DNA of 40,320 nt from a virus (lineage: Duplodnaviria > Heunggongvirae > Uroviricota > Caudoviricetes). The position numbers were made by a program, and so were the translations under genes. Positions within the stretch are counted from its first letter, which is position 1, and each line of letters begins with the position of its first letter. The stretch is from IMG/VR virus record IMGVR_UViG_2698536428_000017. One strand, given 5' to 3'. The notes below the pieces were generated by a model that did not search any database, was not told the DNA's origin, and worked only from the letters and a program-made list of their open reading frames with translations. Below, in pieces: positions 6,360 through 27,842 of this stretch.

Positions 6360-6946
6360 TAGCCGCCTCCCAGTAATGACGCCACGTTACCAGTGATGCT
6401 TTTCAGCAGTGAAGTATCTGGAGGCTTTGTGGTTTTGTTGCCGCTGTTCTGTACCGCCGACGTGCTGGCCCCTTCCTTCATGTTGGTTTTATCCGCGACG
6501 GTAATCTGCTGTGTCCGGGAGATAAGGACCTCCCTCAGGGTAAGGACGGCGGACAGGACATTTTCGGTTGTCTTGTCCGTCGTCACTTCCAGCGCCCGGA
6601 TCAACATGTTGCTGTACAGCCGTTTACCGGTTACCACATCGAAGGGGATACGGCTTTCCTGCAGATCCAGTAGCTCCTGATACGTCTGCTGAGGACTCAG
6701 GCCGAGCAGGCTGGTAGCCGTCAGGTTACTGGCAAAATCCAGCAATGTGCCGCCACCGGCGAAACCAACCTCCATCACCACTTCTGACGGTTTTTTATAG
6801 GCATGATCAGCGACAGCAGCCCCGACCTCTACCGGATGCTCGGTTATTTCAAGCATATCTGTATGCTTCTCTGAAATAACAACACTGGGAACAATCATTC
6901 CTATTTTTCTGCTCTGCTGATGGAAAAGTGTAGAGAGAATATCCAC
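6359..6946 (-). CDS. Tail protein following the tape measure
   Basis: 195 aa; GTG start overlapping tape measure stop with strong upstream Shine-Dalgarno; alternative ATG at 6898. Confidence 0.45.
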   Translation of the reverse strand: MDILSTLFHQQSRKIGMIVPSVVISEKHTDMLEITEHPVEVGAAVADHAYKKPSEVVMEVGFAGGGTLLDFASNLTATSLLGLSPQQTYQELLDLQESRIPFDVVTGKRLYSNMLIRALEVTTDKTTENVLSAVLTLREVLISRTQQITVADKTNMKEGASTSAVQNSGNKTTKPPDTSLLKSITGNVASLLGGG

Positions 6947-8934
6947 TAACCCACCCTCACCTGATTACTTCGCATGACCTGAGCATTTGCAGACTGTTGC
7001 CGACGTGCAACCTCATTACCGACAGCGTGCGGATCTCCGCCACCGTAAATGTGGTAGGTATTTTGCTGGTTAACCTCTGTCATTTTGCCACTAATTCCCG
7101 CCACGGCAGCCTTATTAATCAGCTCTCGAGAATAGATATTTCTTCCATTTTCATGCTGGATAATGCTGCTCATCAATGCTGACATGGTTTTCGGATCGCT
7201 CATATTCAGGGCAGCCCGGGGATCCACTCCCAGTCGTTGCGATACAGCCCTGATATACGCAGTTGTGTTGTTATTATCAGAGGCAGGTGCCCAGGTAGAG
7301 ATAATTTTTTCCACACTGTTTATTCCTCGCCCGGCGTACAACATTAACTGACGAGCAAGAGCCCGTAATCCATCAAAGGCAGTTTCAAATCTGGCAAATC
7401 GCCCGCCCGGGTGTTCAAGAGAAGCCCCCGCCTGACCAGCAAAATTAAGGTTTCCCGGATTGTTATTCCGTTCTCCTCGTTTCGTAGCCTGTGCATGTTG
7501 TTCCGGCTCATCATCACCAAACCAGCCGCGTACCGTCCGGCCCACACTGCGGGGATCGAATCCCCAGTGCTCTTTAATCCAGTCGGCTGTACTGTTAGCG
7601 CTGTCTGTAACCATCGGCATCGCTGACGGATTTTCGCTGCCCTGATTAAGTATCTGTTTGCCGATGCTGACGGCATCAGCCCAGCGTCCATCTTTGATAG
7701 CGTTAAGCAGGTCGGCAATCATGTTCAGCATTTTGCTGAATTCGCCCATCTGGTCGATGAAGTTGCTGAAATCCCACTTCAGGGACCATGATTTGGGGTC
7801 AATATTGAGTAGTTTCGCCAGCGCTTTCGCCAGATCGTTAACGGTCGTTTTAAGGTCACGAACCATCTTCAGCGCGGCATCGACCTCCGGTTTCCACTTG
7901 CCCCAGTCAATCAGGCTGTCGCCGCCTTCCTTCCAGGTCTGATAGTCCTCCCACAGGAGGGCAATCCCCGCCGCCAGCGCGGTAATGAGGCCAACCGGCG
8001 ACATCCAGAACGTACTGTTCAGAATGCGCAGCGCAATCGTCAGTGCGCCAAACAGCGAGATCAACTCCCGCGTTTGCTTATCCAGCGATTGCCACCAGGT
8101 GATAAGGCCTGATGTCCCCTCAATCAGTCTGAAGAACAGCCGCCCGATAATATCCCCGAGCGCCAGAATGCCTTTTATGGCTTTCGTCAAGGTCTGCTCG
8201 ATACGAGGGAAGTTGTCCAGGATATGGCGGCGCAGGGTGTCCAGCGAACCTGCAAGCCCACCCGCAAGATTAGAGCCGATTTTGTCACGGGCCATGCCTG
8301 CCATCGCGCTAAACTCACGCAAGGAGGTCATAAATTTGTTGGAGTTTCTGGCCGCCTCGTCAGCATTGAAGCCGATAGCTTTCGCCATTGCGCTGTACTG
8401 CCCGGAGAAGCCACCCACACCCCGGCGCATCGCCATAAGGGTATTTTCGTCAATGCCCAGCATCTGCGCATACTGGTTAGCCCGGTAATACGGCATGCTG
8501 CTGAGTTTCTGTCCAATACCCGTAAAGATAGCGGCCATGTCACGCATGTTACCGCTGGCATCACGGGTCTGTACGCCCAGGCGATTCAGAAATCCCTCCG
8601 CCCCGGGATTATTACGAATAAACCGGGAGAGGTTTTCCAGAGAAGATCGCGCAGCGTCCACGCTGCCGCCAACCTGCGAAACCGCATAGCCAATAGACTG
8701 AATTCCCTGGACTGTCGCGCCGGTGCGCTGTGACGCCCAGTAAAGATTATCCAGACCAGAGGCGATCTTAGCCGTGAAGGCCACCACGGACAGCGCAGCT
8801 CCTTCGACGGCCAGCCCCATTTTGATGACATTTGCAGTTGTACCGGCGAGGACAGAACCGAATTTTTTCGCTCCTGCATCATCCACACTGAAGCCAAGCG
8901 AGACGAGGAAATCTTTAATAGTCTCGGCGTTCAT
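6946..8934 (-). CDS. Tail tape measure protein
   Basis: 662 aa from ATG at 8934..8932 with GGAGAG RBS (track ORF begins at an upstream TTG); helical Ala/Gly/Ser-rich composition; follows chaperone gene. Confidence 0.7.
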   Translation of the reverse strand: MNAETIKDFLVSLGFSVDDAGAKKFGSVLAGTTANVIKMGLAVEGAALSVVAFTAKIASGLDNLYWASQRTGATVQGIQSIGYAVSQVGGSVDAARSSLENLSRFIRNNPGAEGFLNRLGVQTRDASGNMRDMAAIFTGIGQKLSSMPYYRANQYAQMLGIDENTLMAMRRGVGGFSGQYSAMAKAIGFNADEAARNSNKFMTSLREFSAMAGMARDKIGSNLAGGLAGSLDTLRRHILDNFPRIEQTLTKAIKGILALGDIIGRLFFRLIEGTSGLITWWQSLDKQTRELISLFGALTIALRILNSTFWMSPVGLITALAAGIALLWEDYQTWKEGGDSLIDWGKWKPEVDAALKMVRDLKTTVNDLAKALAKLLNIDPKSWSLKWDFSNFIDQMGEFSKMLNMIADLLNAIKDGRWADAVSIGKQILNQGSENPSAMPMVTDSANSTADWIKEHWGFDPRSVGRTVRGWFGDDEPEQHAQATKRGERNNNPGNLNFAGQAGASLEHPGGRFARFETAFDGLRALARQLMLYAGRGINSVEKIISTWAPASDNNNTTAYIRAVSQRLGVDPRAALNMSDPKTMSALMSSIIQHENGRNIYSRELINKAAVAGISGKMTEVNQQNTYHIYGGGDPHAVGNEVARRQQSANAQVMRSNQVRVG

Positions 8935-9111
8935 TATCCTCTCTCCATTTCTCAATGCGCCGCTGGTTATCCGCTTTTACCGCCAGATGGTCATTCAAGA
9001 GAGCAATGTCGTACAAATCGACAGAGCCATCTTTAAGTGCTGTATAAGGAATTAACCCGGCGTCAACCGGATTGAGAAGGTAGGACAGCCCGTCCGGCAG
9101 GCTGTTAAACG

Positions 9112-9564
9112 TCAGCCCTGTTGCAGGCTCTGCGTCGTGCTGGTAAGGGGTGTAGGCAAAAAATTTCCCAGCGAATCGGCGACCACCCGCGCCACCAGCT
9201 GCAGCATGACCAGCAGGTCAATATCATCAAACATCAGTTCGCCCTGGGTAAATACCGGCACCCATCCGTCCATATGACGCCGCGATACCACCGCAAGACA
9301 GGGATGAATAATCGCATCGGTGTCATCTTCGGTCAGGGAAGACAGTTCCTCAGCGATACGCGGGAGCATGGTTTCAAACACCGGTTTTAACTGCTCGAAT
9401 TTCACGGTGTCGATTTTGCCATCAGCAGGCAAACTGGAGCGAATGCTCCCGAAATCTGACATCATTCCCGCCAGCACCGGAAGAAGTTTACGGGTCACTT
9501 TCAGCTGGTCAAAAACGCTGAGTTTTGCCGCGCGATATTTCACGCCTTTAATTTCGAATTCCAT
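9112..9564 (-). CDS. Tail assembly chaperone (zero-frame product)
   Basis: 150 aa ORF between tube and tape measure genes, the conserved chaperone position. Confidence 0.6.
   Translation of the reverse strand: MEFEIKGVKYRAAKLSVFDQLKVTRKLLPVLAGMMSDFGSIRSSLPADGKIDTVKFEQLKPVFETMLPRIAEELSSLTEDDTDAIIHPCLAVVSRRHMDGWVPVFTQGELMFDDIDLLVMLQLVARVVADSLGNFLPTPLTSTTQSLQQG
9157..9163 (-). other. Predicted -1 programmed frameshift slippery site (T TTT TTG)
   Basis: Heptamer in zero frame (codons AAT TTT TTG) 14 codons before chaperone stop; manual translation shows the -1 frame open for about 80 codons to a TAA at 8917..8915. Confidence 0.45.
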
Positions 9565-9567
9565 ATA

Positions 9568-10008
9568 TTAAAACTCCCCGAGAACCTGGTCAATCTTGCC
9601 GCAGTCAAACACCCACGGCATCGTATTACCGGTTTTAGCGTTGGCGTTATCCGGTTGTTTCTGGAACGCAACACTGCGTGCCGTGATGATGTCGCCGCTG
9701 ACCTTGTTGCGGATCACGATAACGTTATTCCCCCATGTGGCAGAAGACTGGCTCTGTGCGTTATACGCCAGCGACAATTTTTTATTTGTCGGTGATGTCT
9801 TCAGAAGGTTAACGGTAATCGTCCCGCTTTTATCTGCATGGAGGCTGTGCATCACTTCGCCATCAGCACCGATGGTCATGGTGTTTTTAGGACCGCCCAT
9901 CGCAACCACAATCCCCTCCTCAGAACTTGCCGAACCGTACCCGAGGTCAATCGAACCGGTCGGCCCGGTCAGCGTCGCAGTGACATCCATAAAAGAATAG
10001 GTAGACAT
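9568..10008 (-). CDS. Tail tube protein
   Basis: 146 aa ORF immediately after sheath-like gene and before chaperone. Confidence 0.6.
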   Translation of the reverse strand: MSTYSFMDVTATLTGPTGSIDLGYGSASSEEGIVVAMGGPKNTMTIGADGEVMHSLHADKSGTITVNLLKTSPTNKKLSLAYNAQSQSSATWGNNVIVIRNKVSGDIITARSVAFQKQPDNANAKTGNTMPWVFDCGKIDQVLGEF

Positions 10009-10018
10009 TCACTTCCCC

Positions 10019-11164
10019 TTAGCGAACAACGTTAATCTGTACGTCAGCGTAATGAACCGCGCCTGCAAGTTTTATTGCAGCCTGAATCACCGGAGCCTTA
10101 CGGGCTTCACGTTCTGATTGTGCCTGTTCATCCAGCGGCTGGGCGTATACGTAATAACCTTTGGGCAGCGTGTCACCTGATGACAACTGCCCAAGGTCGC
10201 CACCGTTCCATACGCCCGGAGCAATCAGTCCATTCTGAACGGCCTGATCCAGTGATTTTTCTACATTTGATAACAGTCGGGTAATACCGGCTTCAGTCTG
10301 GGGAACTTTCGTGGTGCTGGTATAAAGCAGGTTATAGAGGTTGGTCTGCACATAATTCTGTAACCAGTCCAGGCCGTGGCGTTCATCAAAGAAATCGCCG
10401 TTAGCCATCACTCCCTGCTGGAGGATAGCCGTATCATTCTGGTAGTACACGAACACATTGCAGTTTTTTGCATCAAGTGCCGATGCCTGGCTGACTGTCA
10501 GTGTTTCATACCCGACACCCGGCTCCTGCTTAAACTTGAGCGTAATCGCGGTATTACTGCCATTGAAATTAACCGTGAATGCCCGGCCAAATGCAGATAA
10601 CGCAGCGTATTTATTACCCGATGAATACTGAATAAAACTGCGTGAATATCCGGCGGTTTTCAGTTTTGATGCCAAATCATCTCTGGATGCAGTCTGCAGG
10701 CATTTCTCATCGCTTGTCGTAATCGCCAGAATACGGCTTACAGAAGAGGATTCGATCGCCGCAGCCACTTTCAGCCAGTCTGCATCCGGAATATCTGCAT
10801 CGTCTGCAATCCCCAGCCCATACCATGAAGTATAATCAAGCATGGCATTCACAGCCTGCTCCAGCGTCTCAGGCGTGGCCTGTTCGCTGTCTCCCTTCGT
10901 TTTCACCCAACGACCAACAAAAACCTCCTGAGGTTTCGGTGATTGTGAGAAAAACACCTGCGCAGCTTTATATTCTGGTGATTCCACGCCAAAATCTTTT
11001 CCAATATCTTCCGCGGCAGAATAACGACGAATGCGCTCACTTACCGGAATGATTGTGGACGGGCCGAGAATGAGTAATGCACCAAAATTTCGCCCTGATG
11101 CTGCACGCGGCGACATGATCACATCAACATTAACAACGTTTGATACAGGCAAGCCCTGTGCCAT
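10019..11164 (-). CDS. Tail sheath protein
   Basis: 381 aa ORF, first gene of tail block, followed by tube and chaperone; size and position consistent with a contractile sheath. Confidence 0.6.
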
Positions 11165-26460: not shown

Positions 26461-26613
26461 GGGGTGGGGTGAAGATCAGTCCATTGAGTCAATCCGAAGT
26501 TCAGCATCTACCACTACACCACTAGACTGGCCCCCTGAATCTCCAGACAACCAGTATCACTTATTTAAGTGATAGTCTTAATACTAGTTTTTAGACTAGT
26601 CATTGGAGAACAG

Positions 26614-26979
26614 ATGATTGATGTCTTAGGGCCGGAGAAACGCAGACGGCGTACCACACAGGAAAAGATCGCAATTGTTCAGCAGAGCTTTGAACCGGGG
26701 ATGACGGTCTCCCTCGTTGCCCGGCAACATGGTGTAGCAGCCAGCCAGTTATTTCTCTGGCGTAAGCAATACCAGGAAGGAAGTCTTACTGCTGTCGCCG
26801 CCGGAGAACAGGTTGTTCCTGCCTCTGAACTTGCTGCCGCCATGAAGCAGATTAAAGAACTCCAGCGCCTGCTCGGCAAGAAAACGATGGAAAATGAACT
26901 CCTCAAAGAAGCCGTTGAATATGGACGGGCAAAAAAGTGGATAGCGCACGCGCCCTTATTGCCCGGGGATGGGGAGTAA
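26614..26979 (+). CDS. insC: IS2 transposase OrfA (InsC)
   Basis: Translation [41 protein letters not shown]... matches IS2 InsC; true ATG at 26614 (track ORF begins upstream). Confidence 0.9.
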
Positions 26980-27842
26980 GCTTAGTCAGCCGTTGTCTCC
27001 GGGTGTCGCGTGCGCAGTTGCACGTCATTCTCAGACGAACCGATGACTGGATGGATGGCCGCCGCAGTCGTCACACTGATGATACGGATGTGCTTCTCCG
27101 TATACACCATGTTATCGGAGAGCTGCCCACGTATGGTTATCGTCGGGTATGGGCGCTGCTTCGCAGACAGGCAGAACTTGATGGTATGCCTGCGATCAAT
27201 GCCAAACGTGTTTACCGGATCATGCGCCAGAATGCGCTGTTGCTTGAGCGAAAACCTGCTGTACCGCCATCGAAACGGGCACATACAGGCAGAGTGGCCG
27301 TGAAAGAAAGCAATCAGCGATGGTGCTCTGACGGGTTCGAGTTCTGCTGTGATAACGGAGAGAGACTGCGTGTCACGTTCGCGCTGGACTGCTGTGATCG
27401 TGAGGCACTGCACTGGGCGGTCACTACCGGCGGCTTCAACAGTGAAACAGTACAGGACGTCATGCTGGGAGCGGTGGAACGCCGCTTCGGCAACGATCTT
27501 CCGTCGTCTCCAGTGGAGTGGCTGACGGATAATGGTTCATGCTACCGGGCTAATGAAACACGCCAGTTCGCCCGGATGTTGGGACTTGAACCGAAGAACA
27601 CGGCGGTGCGGAGTCCGGAGAGTAACGGAATAGCAGAGAGCTTCGTGAAAACGATAAAGCGTGACTACATCAGTATCATGCCCAAACCAGACGGGTTAAC
27701 GGCAGCAAAGAACTTTGCAGAGGCGTTCGAGCATTATAACGAATGGCATCCGCATAGTGCGCTGGGTTATCGCTCGCCACGGGAATATCTGCGGCAGCGG
27801 GCTTGTAATGGGTTAAGTGATAACAGATGTCTGGAAATATAG
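26937..27842 (+). CDS. insD: IS2 transposase OrfB (InsD), DDE catalytic domain
   Basis: 301 aa matching IS2 InsD as recalled; overlaps insC in -1 frame, A6G slippery run present. Confidence 0.9.

What the first reader, a model, noticed from the sequence alone, without database searches (positions are those of the whole stretch)
8915..9564. Predicted -1 programmed ribosomal frameshift in the tail assembly chaperone
The slippery heptamer T TTT TTG lies in the zero frame 14 codons before the chaperone stop. By manual translation the -1 frame then stays open for about 80 codons and stops (TAA 8917..8915) just inside the start of the tape measure gene. This is the conserved G/GT-type frameshift of tailed phages. 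I found it by reading the frame myself; the ORF track does not show it.
Basis: partly seen in the sequence, partly recalled or inferred. Interest (0 to 1): 0.5.

Follow-up and report, generated by a model that had tools for sequence, protein, structure and literature searches.

The report
Tail chaperone -1 frameshift, E. coli prophage
This is a well-supported but ordinary case of the ribosomal frameshift that tailed phages use to make a short and a long tail-assembly chaperone from one gene; its main use is to correct how this common E. coli prophage is annotated.

Summary
On the minus strand, the 150-codon chaperone gene (9564..9112) carries T_TTT_TTG in the zero frame at 9163..9157, 14 codons before its stop. 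From there the -1 frame is open for 81 codons. It ends at TAA 8917..8915, 20 nt inside the tape measure gene (ATG 8934).

- The -1 extension encodes a real domain (Pfam DUF6889, E 1e-20).
- It has no canonical start codon that would cover that domain.
- GGA AAT TTT TTG is identical in 57 of 72 loci examined across Enterobacterales, while neighbouring codons vary freely.
- All 63 extensions scanned match DUF6889.
- Distant relatives encode the same two-domain protein as a single ORF that aligns across the predicted junction.

Refinements: the site is a 13-nt tract holding three overlapping in-frame heptamers (G_GGA_AAT, A_AAT_TTT, T_TTT_TTG), and which one is used cannot be decided here. There is no conserved downstream RNA structure. 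An anti-Shine-Dalgarno-complementary GGGTGGTC lies 11-17 nt upstream and may stimulate the shift.

The same frameshift is already annotated in the related phages Mulock and Magia, so this is a new member of a known kind. No protein-level evidence exists.

The parts
9112..9564 (-). Tail assembly chaperone gene, zero-frame short product (150 aa, TAC-N)
9157..9169 (-). Slippery tract GGGAAATTTTTTG. It holds three overlapping in-frame heptamers: G_GGA_AAT (9169..9163), A_AAT_TTT (9166..9160) and T_TTT_TTG (9163..9157).
   Evidence: Sequence. GGA AAT TTT TTG is identical in 57 of 72 loci examined. An in-frame T6 run is present in 69 of 72 loci. Synonymous identity is 0.78, 1.0, 1.0 and 0.97 at these four codons, against a gene-wide value of 0.51.
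9181..9188 (-). GGGTGGTC, complementary to the 3' end of 16S rRNA; a possible upstream stimulator. It lies 11, 14 and 17 nt upstream of the three heptamers.
   Evidence: Duplex energy with GAUCACCUCCUUA is -12.2 kcal/mol. This is the strongest position in the whole gene when averaged over 68 loci, and 94% of loci are at or below -6 kcal/mol. It is stronger than synonymous re-coding predicts (window p 0.03; mean z -1.6 over loci). A stimulatory role is inferred, not shown.
8915..9160 (-). -1 frame extension: 81 codons plus TAA. Joined to codons 1-135, it gives a predicted 216-aa long product (TAC-NC).
   Evidence: Translation. Entropy by codon position across 68 loci is 0.72, 0.57 and 1.34, the pattern of a translated frame. 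Seven distant single-ORF proteins align across the junction.
8933..9049 (-). DUF6889 domain within the -1 extension (extension residues 38-76)
   Evidence: Pfam PF21829 1.2e-20. All 63 -1 extensions of relatives also match. phrog_4364 2.2e-23. The model shows a confident helical C domain (block-mean pLDDT above 90 from about residue 161) after a low-confidence linker at residues 137-160.
9112..9156 (-). Dual-coding overlap: the zero-frame tail of the short product (14 codons plus stop) and the start of the -1 linker
   Evidence: Synonymous identity rises to 0.87-0.96 immediately after the heptamer.
8915..9088 (-). Stretch that RefSeq annotates as a separate 57-aa 'DUF6889 family protein' with a CTG start. 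Here it is reinterpreted as the 3' part of the frameshift product.
   Evidence: with coordinates mapped to the window. The codon at 9088..9086 is CTG.
6946..8934 (-). Tape measure protein gene (662 aa), immediately downstream. The -1 stop falls 20 nt inside it.
   Evidence: phrog_2276 'tail length tape measure protein' 3.9e-282. RefSeq start.
9568..10008 (-). Tail tube gene, immediately upstream
   Evidence: Pfam KPP10_Orf10 8.8e-61. Listed as Phage_Tube_PhiTE. The sheath gene (DUF3383, phrog_205) lies at 10019..11164.

Best explanation
Proposed mechanism. A minority of ribosomes translating the chaperone mRNA slip back one nucleotide on the tract G_GGA_AAU_UUU_UUG (9169..9157, minus strand). 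This happens at the end of the last helix of the chaperone's N domain. Most ribosomes stay in frame, add 14 more residues and stop, giving the 150-aa short chaperone. Shifted ribosomes read 81 codons in the -1 frame. They add a flexible linker of about 25 residues and a helical DUF6889 domain of about 50 residues, giving a 216-aa long form that ends just inside the tape measure gene.

By analogy with lambda gpG/gpGT, the shared N domain would coat the tape measure protein. The extra C domain of the rare long form would recruit the tube protein, so that the tail polymerises around the tape measure.

The tRNA-Phe on UUU (codon 135) is the likely slipping tRNA. It could act as the A-site tRNA of A_AAU_UUU or as the P-site tRNA of U_UUU_UUG.

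No downstream RNA structure is involved. The upstream GGGUGGUC may stimulate the shift by pairing with 16S rRNA.

Shown here: the sequence anatomy, the coding status and conservation of both frames, and the fold. Inferred: the slip itself, its efficiency, which heptamer is used, the role of the SD-like element, and the functions of the two products.
For: - Frame geometry is confirmed, and the site is a unique outlier among the 29 in-frame heptamers in the window's genes.
- The gene is a tail assembly chaperone lying between the tube and tape measure genes. Its modelled fold matches the HK97 chaperone.
- The -1 extension is a bona fide conserved domain. All 63 relatives scanned also match it, and the codon-position entropy shows the third-position excess of a translated frame.
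- No canonical start covers the domain, and RefSeq needed a CTG start.
- In 72 loci examined, at 38-100% chaperone identity, an in-frame T6 run is present in 69. In 66 of the 68 distinct T6-bearing loci the -1 frame runs a further 76-83 codons from the slip site.
- Synonymous conservation jumps from about 0.5 to 1.0 exactly at the tract.
- Seven distant proteins (28-34% identity, about 190-210 aa) are single ORFs that align through the junction, including F-[AST]-Y-x-P. The one examined at DNA level has no slippery run there.
- In another lineage a short TAC_15 gene and a separate long gene carrying DUF6889 lie side by side. This fits a need for both forms.
- Curators annotated the homologous frameshift in phages Mulock and Magia.
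- Phage P2 E/E+E' uses TTTTTTG with no downstream structure (PMC3091744). The lambda G/GT mechanism is reviewed in PMC5009743.
Against: - There is no protein, ribosome-profiling or reporter evidence for this prophage or, as far as found, for any member of the Phage_TAC_15/DUF6889 family.
- No downstream stimulatory structure was found: RNAalifold -0.3 kcal/mol, no covariation in the one candidate helix, and window fold z-scores of -0.17 and -0.57. Efficiency may therefore be low.
- In E. coli, UUG is a poorer A-site shifter than UUU or UUC (PMC4066793).
- A few relatives lack an intact site or have a truncated extension (L109, L118, L140, L093).
- The SD-like element overlaps conserved Arg-Val-Val codons, and the loci are phylogenetically related. 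Its statistical support is therefore only suggestive.
Confidence: 0.88

Rival explanations
1. Transcriptional slippage. RNA polymerase adds one extra U on the T6 run, and ordinary translation of that minority mRNA gives the same fusion protein.
For: - The tract contains a homopolymer (T6 preceded by A3).
- Assemblies with T7 instead of T6 exist, and they encode exactly the predicted fusion. Examples are P0001 from Logan SRR23924998 and E. coli ISC7 CDL28562.1. This shows the run is indel-prone at some level, whether in the DNA, in sequencing or in the RNA.
Against: - Documented bacterial transcriptional slippage involves runs of about 9 A or T (PMC5009743). This run has only six.
- Burkholderia phage Magia has only T4 at the homologous site, but it keeps a canonical in-frame heptamer, C_CCT_TTT.
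- Locus L109 has the T6 run broken but keeps G_GGA_AAT.
- The conserved codon choices GGA and AAT upstream of the run are explained by ribosomal heptamers, not by polymerase slippage.
Confidence: 0.06
2. Independent gene. The DUF6889 ORF is translated on its own from a non-canonical start, as RefSeq annotates it (CTG at 9088), and is not fused to the chaperone.
For: PGAP annotates a separate 57-aa 'DUF6889 family protein' in hundreds of E. coli genomes. PHROGs also holds the extension as a stand-alone 54-residue family.
Against: - No ATG, GTG or TTG start covers the domain; the only canonical-start ORF in that frame is 33 aa.
- No GGAGG-type ribosome-binding motif is apparent by eye in the sequence just upstream of the CTG.
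- The -1 frame is conserved as protein from the slippery tract onward, about 24 codons upstream of the CTG. That segment aligns with in-frame sequence in the single-ORF relatives.
- Selection on synonymous sites begins at the heptamer, not at the CTG.
Confidence: 0.04
3. Decay relic. An ancestral single long ORF was broken by a 1-nt deletion, and the downstream part is a non-functional remnant.
For: Single-ORF versions exist in distant relatives. T7 variants that restore one frame occur in E. coli assemblies.
Against: - The split arrangement, with an intact -1 frame, is kept in about 65 loci from different species.
- The -1 frame shows a purifying-selection signature, and the slippery tract is invariant.
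- A neutral relic would accumulate stops.
Confidence: 0.02

Closest known systems
Phage lambda gpG/gpGT and the conserved tail assembly chaperone frameshift of long-tailed phages (Levin 1993; Xu, Hendrix, Duda 2004; reviewed in PMC5009743)
   Same: - The gene lies between the major tail (tube) gene and the tape measure gene.
[quoted passage not shown]
- The 5'-most heptamer here, G_GGA_AAT, resembles lambda's G_GGA_AAG.
   Different: - No detectable sequence similarity to gpG or gpT. The Pfam families are Phage_TAC_15 and DUF6889.
- This is a contractile-tail (sheath plus tube) phage.
- The site is a 13-nt tract with three overlapping heptamers, and its A-site codons are less shift-prone in E. 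coli than AAG.
- The product ratio and the binding partners are untested.
Phage P2 E / E+E' frameshift
   Same: - A myovirus tail chaperone with a -1 slip on the identical heptamer TTTTTTG.
- No downstream RNA structure (PMC3091744).
   Different: The proteins belong to a different family: the Pfam scan found only Phage_TAC_15. P2 E is 91 aa and E+E' is 142 aa, against 150 and 216 aa here.
Annotated 'tape measure chaperone frameshift product' of Klebsiella phage Mulock (MN098327) and Burkholderia phage Magia (MT701587)
   Same: - True homologues: the same Phage_TAC_15 plus DUF6889 pair and the same gene order.
- Mulock has the identical GGA AAT TTT TTG.
- Magia slips at the homologous Phe codon.
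   Different: - Magia uses C_CCT_TTT and has no T6 run.
- Both are curator predictions without experiments. The Mulock genome announcement does not mention the frameshift.
- The E. coli prophage itself is annotated differently, with a separate CTG-start ORF.
Proposed -1 frameshift in the chaperone gene of Pakpunavirus and other Vandenendeviridae (PMC12846349)
   Same: - A poly-T slippery motif near the 3' end of TAC-N.
- The downstream 'hypothetical protein' is reinterpreted as the C domain of TAC-NC.
- The argument rests on conservation of the -1 frame.
- The tail module is related: the tube protein here matches Pfam KPP10_Orf10, a family named after a Pseudomonas phage.
   Different: Those are lytic Pseudomonas phages. 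Their motif is GTTTTT, and homology of their chaperones to this one was not tested here.
E. coli dnaX gamma/tau frameshift cassette
   Same: A possible upstream Shine-Dalgarno-like stimulator within the reported 9-14 nt range (PMC5009743): 11 nt to G_GGA_AAT and 14 nt to A_AAT_TTT.
   Different: dnaX also needs a strong downstream hairpin and shifts about 50% of ribosomes on A_AAA_AAG. Here there is no hairpin, and the SD-like element is 17 nt from T_TTT_TTG. Its role is unproven.

Membership tests
G/GT-type tail assembly chaperone -1 frameshift | The gene pair lies between the major tail (tube) gene and the tape measure gene | tested here: met
   Tube gene 10008..9568, chaperone 9564..9112, tape measure 8934..6946, all on the minus strand.
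G/GT-type tail assembly chaperone -1 frameshift | The downstream ORF overlaps the 3' end of the chaperone ORF in the -1 frame and has no start codon of its own | tested here: met
   The -1 frame is open from 9217 to 8915. The only canonical-start ORF in that frame is 33 aa, and RefSeq uses a CTG start.
G/GT-type tail assembly chaperone -1 frameshift | An X_XXY_YYZ slippery heptamer lies in the zero frame within the overlap | tested here: met
   Three overlapping heptamers occupy 9169..9157. They are the only heptamers in the window whose -1 frame runs past the gene's stop.
G/GT-type tail assembly chaperone -1 frameshift | The arrangement is conserved in relatives despite sequence divergence | tested here: met
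   An in-frame T6 run is present in 69 of 72 loci, and the extension is 76-83 aa in 66 of 68 distinct loci. Synonymous identity is 1.0 at the site. All 63 extensions scanned match DUF6889.
G/GT-type tail assembly chaperone -1 frameshift | The upstream product is a tail assembly chaperone by sequence or fold | tested here: met
G/GT-type tail assembly chaperone -1 frameshift | Two proteins share an N terminus, are made at a fixed low ratio, are both needed for tail assembly and are absent from virions | not testable with these tools
   This needs Western blots or mass spectrometry and genetics. The indirect support is that distant lineages encode the long form as a single ORF, or encode the short and long forms as two genes.
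G/GT-type tail assembly chaperone -1 frameshift | The C-terminal (T-like) domain binds the tube protein and the N domain binds the tape measure | not tested
   No complex prediction or binding assay was run. The model shows two domains joined by a low-confidence linker.
P2 E/E+E' protein family | Sequence homology to P2 gpE | tested here: not met
   The Pfam scan at E 0.01 returned only Phage_TAC_15 and DUF6889. The resemblance is limited to the heptamer and the lack of structure.
dnaX-like SD-stimulated -1 frameshift | A functional Shine-Dalgarno-like element 9-14 nt 5' of the shift site | tested here: inconclusive
   GGGTGGTC binds the anti-SD at -12.2 kcal/mol and is the strongest position in the gene across 68 loci. 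It is enriched over synonymous re-coding (mean z -1.6). However, it overlaps conserved Arg-Val-Val codons, and the spacing is 11, 14 or 17 nt depending on the heptamer.
dnaX-like / IS-type -1 frameshift | A downstream stimulatory hairpin or pseudoknot 5-9 nt after the heptamer | tested here: not met
   RNAalifold consensus -0.3 kcal/mol. The candidate helix is no better than shuffled controls. Window fold z-scores are -0.17 and -0.57. No Rfam match.
Transcriptional slippage sites | A homopolymer run long enough for polymerase slippage (about 9 A or T in bacteria) | tested here: not met
   The run is T6. Magia has only T4 at the homologous site. The threshold is from PMC5009743.

The most novel reading that the evidence does not exclude
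The signal may be a compact cassette that needs no RNA structure. It would consist of a 13-nt tract with three overlapping in-frame heptamers (G_GGA_AAU_UUU_UUG), giving the ribosome three successive chances to slip. An upstream anti-SD-complementary GGGUGGUC, 11-14 nt from the first two heptamers, would stimulate the slip. Both elements are held at synonymous sites across Enterobacterales. This chaperone family would then be a natural example of an SD-stimulated, hairpin-free -1 frameshift in a phage structural operon.
Probability: 0.3. Interest if true: 0.4.

Novelty: new member of a known kind. Interest (0 to 1): 0.25.

Why it matters
The main value is in annotation.

- This prophage region is present in 368 of 5,426 complete E. 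coli genomes.
- RefSeq splits the long chaperone into a 150-aa gene plus an artificial 57-aa CTG-start 'DUF6889 family protein'. Some phage records even label the stretch 'NTP pyrophosphohydrolase'.
- Recognising the frameshift gives DUF6889 a function: it is the T-like C-terminal domain of the long tail assembly chaperone of SEN34-, Mulock- and Magia-type myoviruses.
- The comparative set of about 65 loci defines the signal to the nucleotide.

Mechanistically it adds one more well-conserved example of a hairpin-free phage chaperone frameshift, with a testable upstream SD-like element. It does not change any concept.

Tried and rejected
- **Downstream stimulatory structure.** RNAalifold on 65 sequences from the heptamer to +95 nt gave essentially nothing (-0.3 kcal/mol). 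A recurring CUCCCCG...CGGGGA helix seen in single-sequence folds was tested and showed no covariation: 61.4% of cells paired against 62.0% in shuffles. It is also broken in the window. The window's own downstream folds are no better than shuffled sequence. Rfam has no match.
- **+1 frameshift.** The +1 frame closes within 2 codons of the chaperone stop in the window.
- **Independent start for the -1 ORF.** Rejected.
- **Wrong frame on my first attempt.** translated the wrong frame and should be ignored; it was corrected.
- **A wide protein alignment for locus finding.** A narrower one worked.
- **Sequence search of the fused protein against the PDB.** It found nothing. The link to known chaperones came only from the fold.
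- **NCBIfam.** It has no model for either part.
- **Mulock genome announcement.** It does not discuss the frameshift.
- **Literature search for DUF6889, PF21829 and PF21822.** It found no paper.
- **Short and long chaperone genes in locus L160.** They are too diverged for BLASTP to link them. That support rests on Pfam and profile hits only.
Full report
**1. What is in the sequence**

The feature is on the minus strand. The 150-codon ORF 9564..9112 reads in its zero frame ...GAT TCG CTG GGA AAT TTT TTG CCT ACA..., with TTT at 9162..9160 and TTG at 9159..9157.

- T_TTT_TTG therefore occupies 9163..9157 in the X_XXY_YYZ phase. TTG is codon 136, and 14 sense codons follow before TGA at 9114..9112.
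- Translating from 9160 in the -1 frame gives 81 codons without a stop (FAYTPYQHDAEPATGLTFNSLPDGLSYLLNPVDAGLIPYTALKDGSVDLYDIALLNDHLAVKADNQRRIEKWREDNERRDY). It ends at TAA 8917..8915.
- The tape measure gene starts at ATG 8934, so the -1 stop lies 20 nt inside it.

**2. Is it more than chance?**

- The -1 frame carries 15 stops in the 160 codons upstream of 9220, then none for 100 codons.
- The 49 annotated genes of the window (12,035 codons) contain 29 in-frame slippery heptamers. Only the three in this gene have a -1 frame that runs past the gene's stop.
- These three have 81-83 open codons. The next best has 27 and the median is 10.

**3. Context**

- The window matches E. coli JNEC-KY208 (NZ_AP045181.1, 1338934-1379253, reverse complement) with 5 mismatches in 40,320 bases.
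- It is a prophage lying next to yfhL. It is related to Escherichia phage vB_EcoM-606R2 (97.7% identity over the queried 1-kb stretch) and to Salmonella phage SEN34 (genus Brunovirus, 78%).
- The gene order is sheath (DUF3383, phrog_205), tube (KPP10_Orf10), this gene (Pfam Phage_TAC_15 3e-31; phrog_1688 'tail assembly chaperone' 4e-65), tape measure (phrog_2276, 4e-282), then a Dit-like protein, baseplate plug and hub.
- The 1-kb query spanning this locus (window 8700-9700) matches 368 of 5,426 complete E. coli genomes.

**4. The -1 frame is a real coding sequence without its own start**

- The 81-residue extension matches Pfam DUF6889 (1e-20) and phrog_4364 (2e-23).
- In that frame the only ORF with an ATG, GTG or TTG start is 33 aa and covers only part of the domain.
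- RefSeq annotates a separate 57-aa 'DUF6889 family protein' whose first codon (9088..9086) is CTG. This shows that no normal start is available.
- The zero-frame stop and the tape measure start are 177 nt apart.

**5. Comparative evidence**

A scan of one genome per species returned 70 loci from Enterobacterales, at 38-86% chaperone identity. Together with the window, Mulock and SEN34, 72 loci were examined.

- An in-frame T6 run is present in 69 of the 72.
- The 12-nt string GGA AAT TTT TTG is identical in 57 of the 72, while the flanking Leu, Ser and Asp codons vary freely.
- Among the 68 distinct T6-bearing loci, the -1 frame runs 76-83 codons from the slip site in 66.
- Synonymous-site identity is about 0.5 across the gene. 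It is 0.78, 1.0, 1.0 and 0.97 at Gly133, Asn134, Phe135 and Leu136, and stays at 0.87-0.96 at the next three codons, at the start of the dual-coding overlap.
- Downstream of the zero-frame stop, nucleotide entropy by -1-frame codon position is 0.72, 0.57 and 1.34. This is the signature of a translated frame.
- All 63 extensions scanned match DUF6889.
- The exceptions look like decaying copies or variants. L093 has a broken chaperone gene. L118 and L140 have premature stops in the extension. L109 has the T6 run interrupted (GGA AAT ATT TTG) but retains G_GGA_AAT.

**6. Independent support for the fusion protein**

- A search of 1.84 billion representative proteins found seven distant proteins (28-34% identity, about 190-210 aa) that are single ORFs. 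They align with the predicted product across the junction, for example ...GYF-SYTP and ...RFF-TYAP against ...NFF-AYTP.
- The one examined at DNA level has no slippery run at that point (GGC TAC TTC TCG TAC).
- In another lineage (L160, L161), a 167-aa Phage_TAC_15 gene is directly followed by a separate 209-aa gene that carries DUF6889 and a chaperone-like N part. Short and long forms are thus encoded by two genes there. BLASTP cannot link the two, so this rests on profile hits only.
- About ten E. coli assemblies, including strain ISC7 (CDL28562.1), carry T7 instead of T6 and so encode exactly the predicted fusion as one ORF. Whether these are mutations or homopolymer sequencing errors cannot be told.

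**7. Structure**

- An AlphaFold model of the fused form has mean pLDDT 88.
- It shows a confident N domain whose last helix (residues 117-136) ends exactly at the slip site. A low-confidence linker follows (residues 137-160), then a confident three-helix C domain (161-212).
- This gives a fold-level link to the gpG family, which sequence searches do not show.

**8. How the shift probably works**

Three heptamers overlap in phase: G_GGA_AAT (9169..9163), A_AAT_TTT (9166..9160) and T_TTT_TTG (9163..9157). The evidence on which is used is mixed.

- *Published E. coli measurements (PMC4066793).* All-pyrimidine A-site codons (UUU, UUC) shift better than UUG, and R_RR.U_UU.Y motifs are singled out as shift-prone.
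- *Relatives point both ways.* Burkholderia phage Magia, with an annotated frameshift, has C_CCT_TTT at the position of A_AAT_TTT and no T6 run. A group of five loci (L131, L144-L146, L151; four from Erwinia, one from Kalamiella) has only T_TTT_TTG.
- *Common denominator.* In all of these, tRNA-Phe on the UUU codon can re-pair with UUU in the -1 frame.
- *Products differ by one residue.* The junction is ...NFF-AYTP if the slip precedes decoding of the Leu codon, and ...NFL-AYTP for a tandem slip on T_TTT_TTG. Mass spectrometry could decide.
- *No downstream stimulator exists*. The same was reported for P2 E/E+E', which uses the identical TTTTTTG (PMC3091744).

Upstream, GGGTGGTC (9188..9181) can form an 8-bp duplex with the 3' end of 16S rRNA (-12.2 kcal/mol).

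- Averaged over 68 loci, this is the strongest anti-SD site in the scanned region (-330 to +60 nt around the heptamer), and 94% of loci are at or below -6 kcal/mol.
- It is stronger than expected from the amino-acid sequence under synonymous re-coding (window p 0.03; mean z -1.6).
- Its distance is 11, 14 and 17 nt from the three heptamers. The reported window for -1 stimulation is 9-14 nt (PMC5009743).
- I regard this as a plausible but unproven stimulator. The loci are related, and the motif overlaps conserved Arg-Val-Val codons.

**9. Rival explanations**

- *Transcriptional slippage* is unlikely for a T6 run. It does not explain Magia (T4 with a canonical heptamer) or the fixed GGA and AAT codons.
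- *Independent initiation* is contradicted by the absence of a start codon, and by protein-level and synonymous conservation that begins at the tract, 24 codons upstream of the CTG.
- *A decaying relic* is contradicted by purifying selection across about 65 species.

**10. Comparison with what is known, and verdict**

- This is the conserved tail assembly chaperone frameshift first shown for lambda G/GT and found in most long-tailed phages (PMC5009743).
- Its heptamer and its lack of structure match P2 E/E+E'.
- GenBank curators have already annotated the homologous frameshift in Klebsiella phage Mulock and Burkholderia phage Magia.
- A 2025 paper argues the same for the chaperone of Pakpunavirus and related phages, using a poly-T motif (PMC12846349).
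- What is new is modest. The frameshift is assigned to this widespread E. coli prophage. DUF6889 is identified as the T-like domain. The signal is defined to the nucleotide, with a possible SD-like stimulator.
- No experiment supports the frameshift for any member of this protein family. I rate the interpretation as supported (confidence 0.88), the novelty as a new member of a known kind, and the interest as low to moderate.

Noticed in passing
window 26614..27842 (+ strand); A_AAA_AAG at 26931: An IS2 (IS3-family) element is inserted in the prophage. RefSeq annotates its transposase as a two-piece CDS with a programmed frameshift. This is a second, already known -1 frameshift site in the same window. 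It corresponds to the overlapping ORFs 26569..26979 and 26937..27842.
   Followed up: partly
window 8915..9088 (minus strand); phage records: Public annotation of this stretch is inconsistent. RefSeq calls a 57-aa CTG-start 'DUF6889 family protein'. Several Klebsiella prophage records and one E. coli genome label a feature here 'NTP pyrophosphohydrolase'. SEN34 leaves it unannotated. Only Mulock and Magia join it to the chaperone.
   Followed up: yes
L084 (Logan SRR23924998) columns 72-78 of alignment A1; protein P0270 = CDL28562.1 (E. coli ISC7): About ten assemblies have T7 instead of T6 at the slippery run, fusing the two frames into one 212-213-aa ORF. The junction is identical to the predicted frameshift product. 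Whether these are real mutations, homopolymer sequencing errors or RNA-derived reads is unknown.
   Followed up: partly
L160 1989..3130 and L161 577..1718; L085 1038..1664; L159 2501..3133: Distant relatives do without a frameshift. Some have a single in-frame chaperone+DUF6889 ORF. In L085 this is followed directly by a Dit-like gene rather than a tape measure gene; in L159 it is preceded by a 674-aa gene. Others have a short TAC_15 gene next to a separate long gene carrying DUF6889. The gene orders differ from the window's.
   Followed up: partly
L144, L151, L146, L145, L131 (four Erwinia loci and one Kalamiella locus), starting 7-8 nt after T_TTT_TTG: In this group, which lacks the two 5' heptamers, single-sequence folds give a long helix, CUCCCCGUCAG...CUGACGGGGA (-23 to -34 kcal/mol over 70 nt). 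It starts at the classical spacer distance. Family-wide it shows no covariation, and it is broken in the window. A lineage-specific stimulator is not excluded.
   Followed up: partly
L109 (Salmonella enterica s1), L118, L140, L093: A few relatives have damaged signals. L109 has the T6 run interrupted (GGA AAT ATT TTG) with the extension intact. L118 and L140 have premature stops in the -1 extension. L093 has a disrupted chaperone ORF. These are probably decaying prophages.
   Followed up: no
window 6946..8934 (minus strand), tape measure residues about 440-650: The C-terminal third of the tape measure protein matches PHROG families annotated as endolysin or tail injection transglycosylase (phrog_873 5e-49, phrog_7182 6e-27). 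RefSeq names it a lytic transglycosylase in some genomes. This suggests a tape measure with a built-in cell-wall-degrading domain.
   Followed up: no
window 8940..8948 (minus strand): The last codons of the -1 extension (AAA TGG AGA GAG GAT AAT GAA) also contain the tape measure ribosome-binding site (GGAGAGAGG) and its ATG. They are invariant across window, Mulock and SEN34, so this stretch serves three purposes.
   Followed up: no
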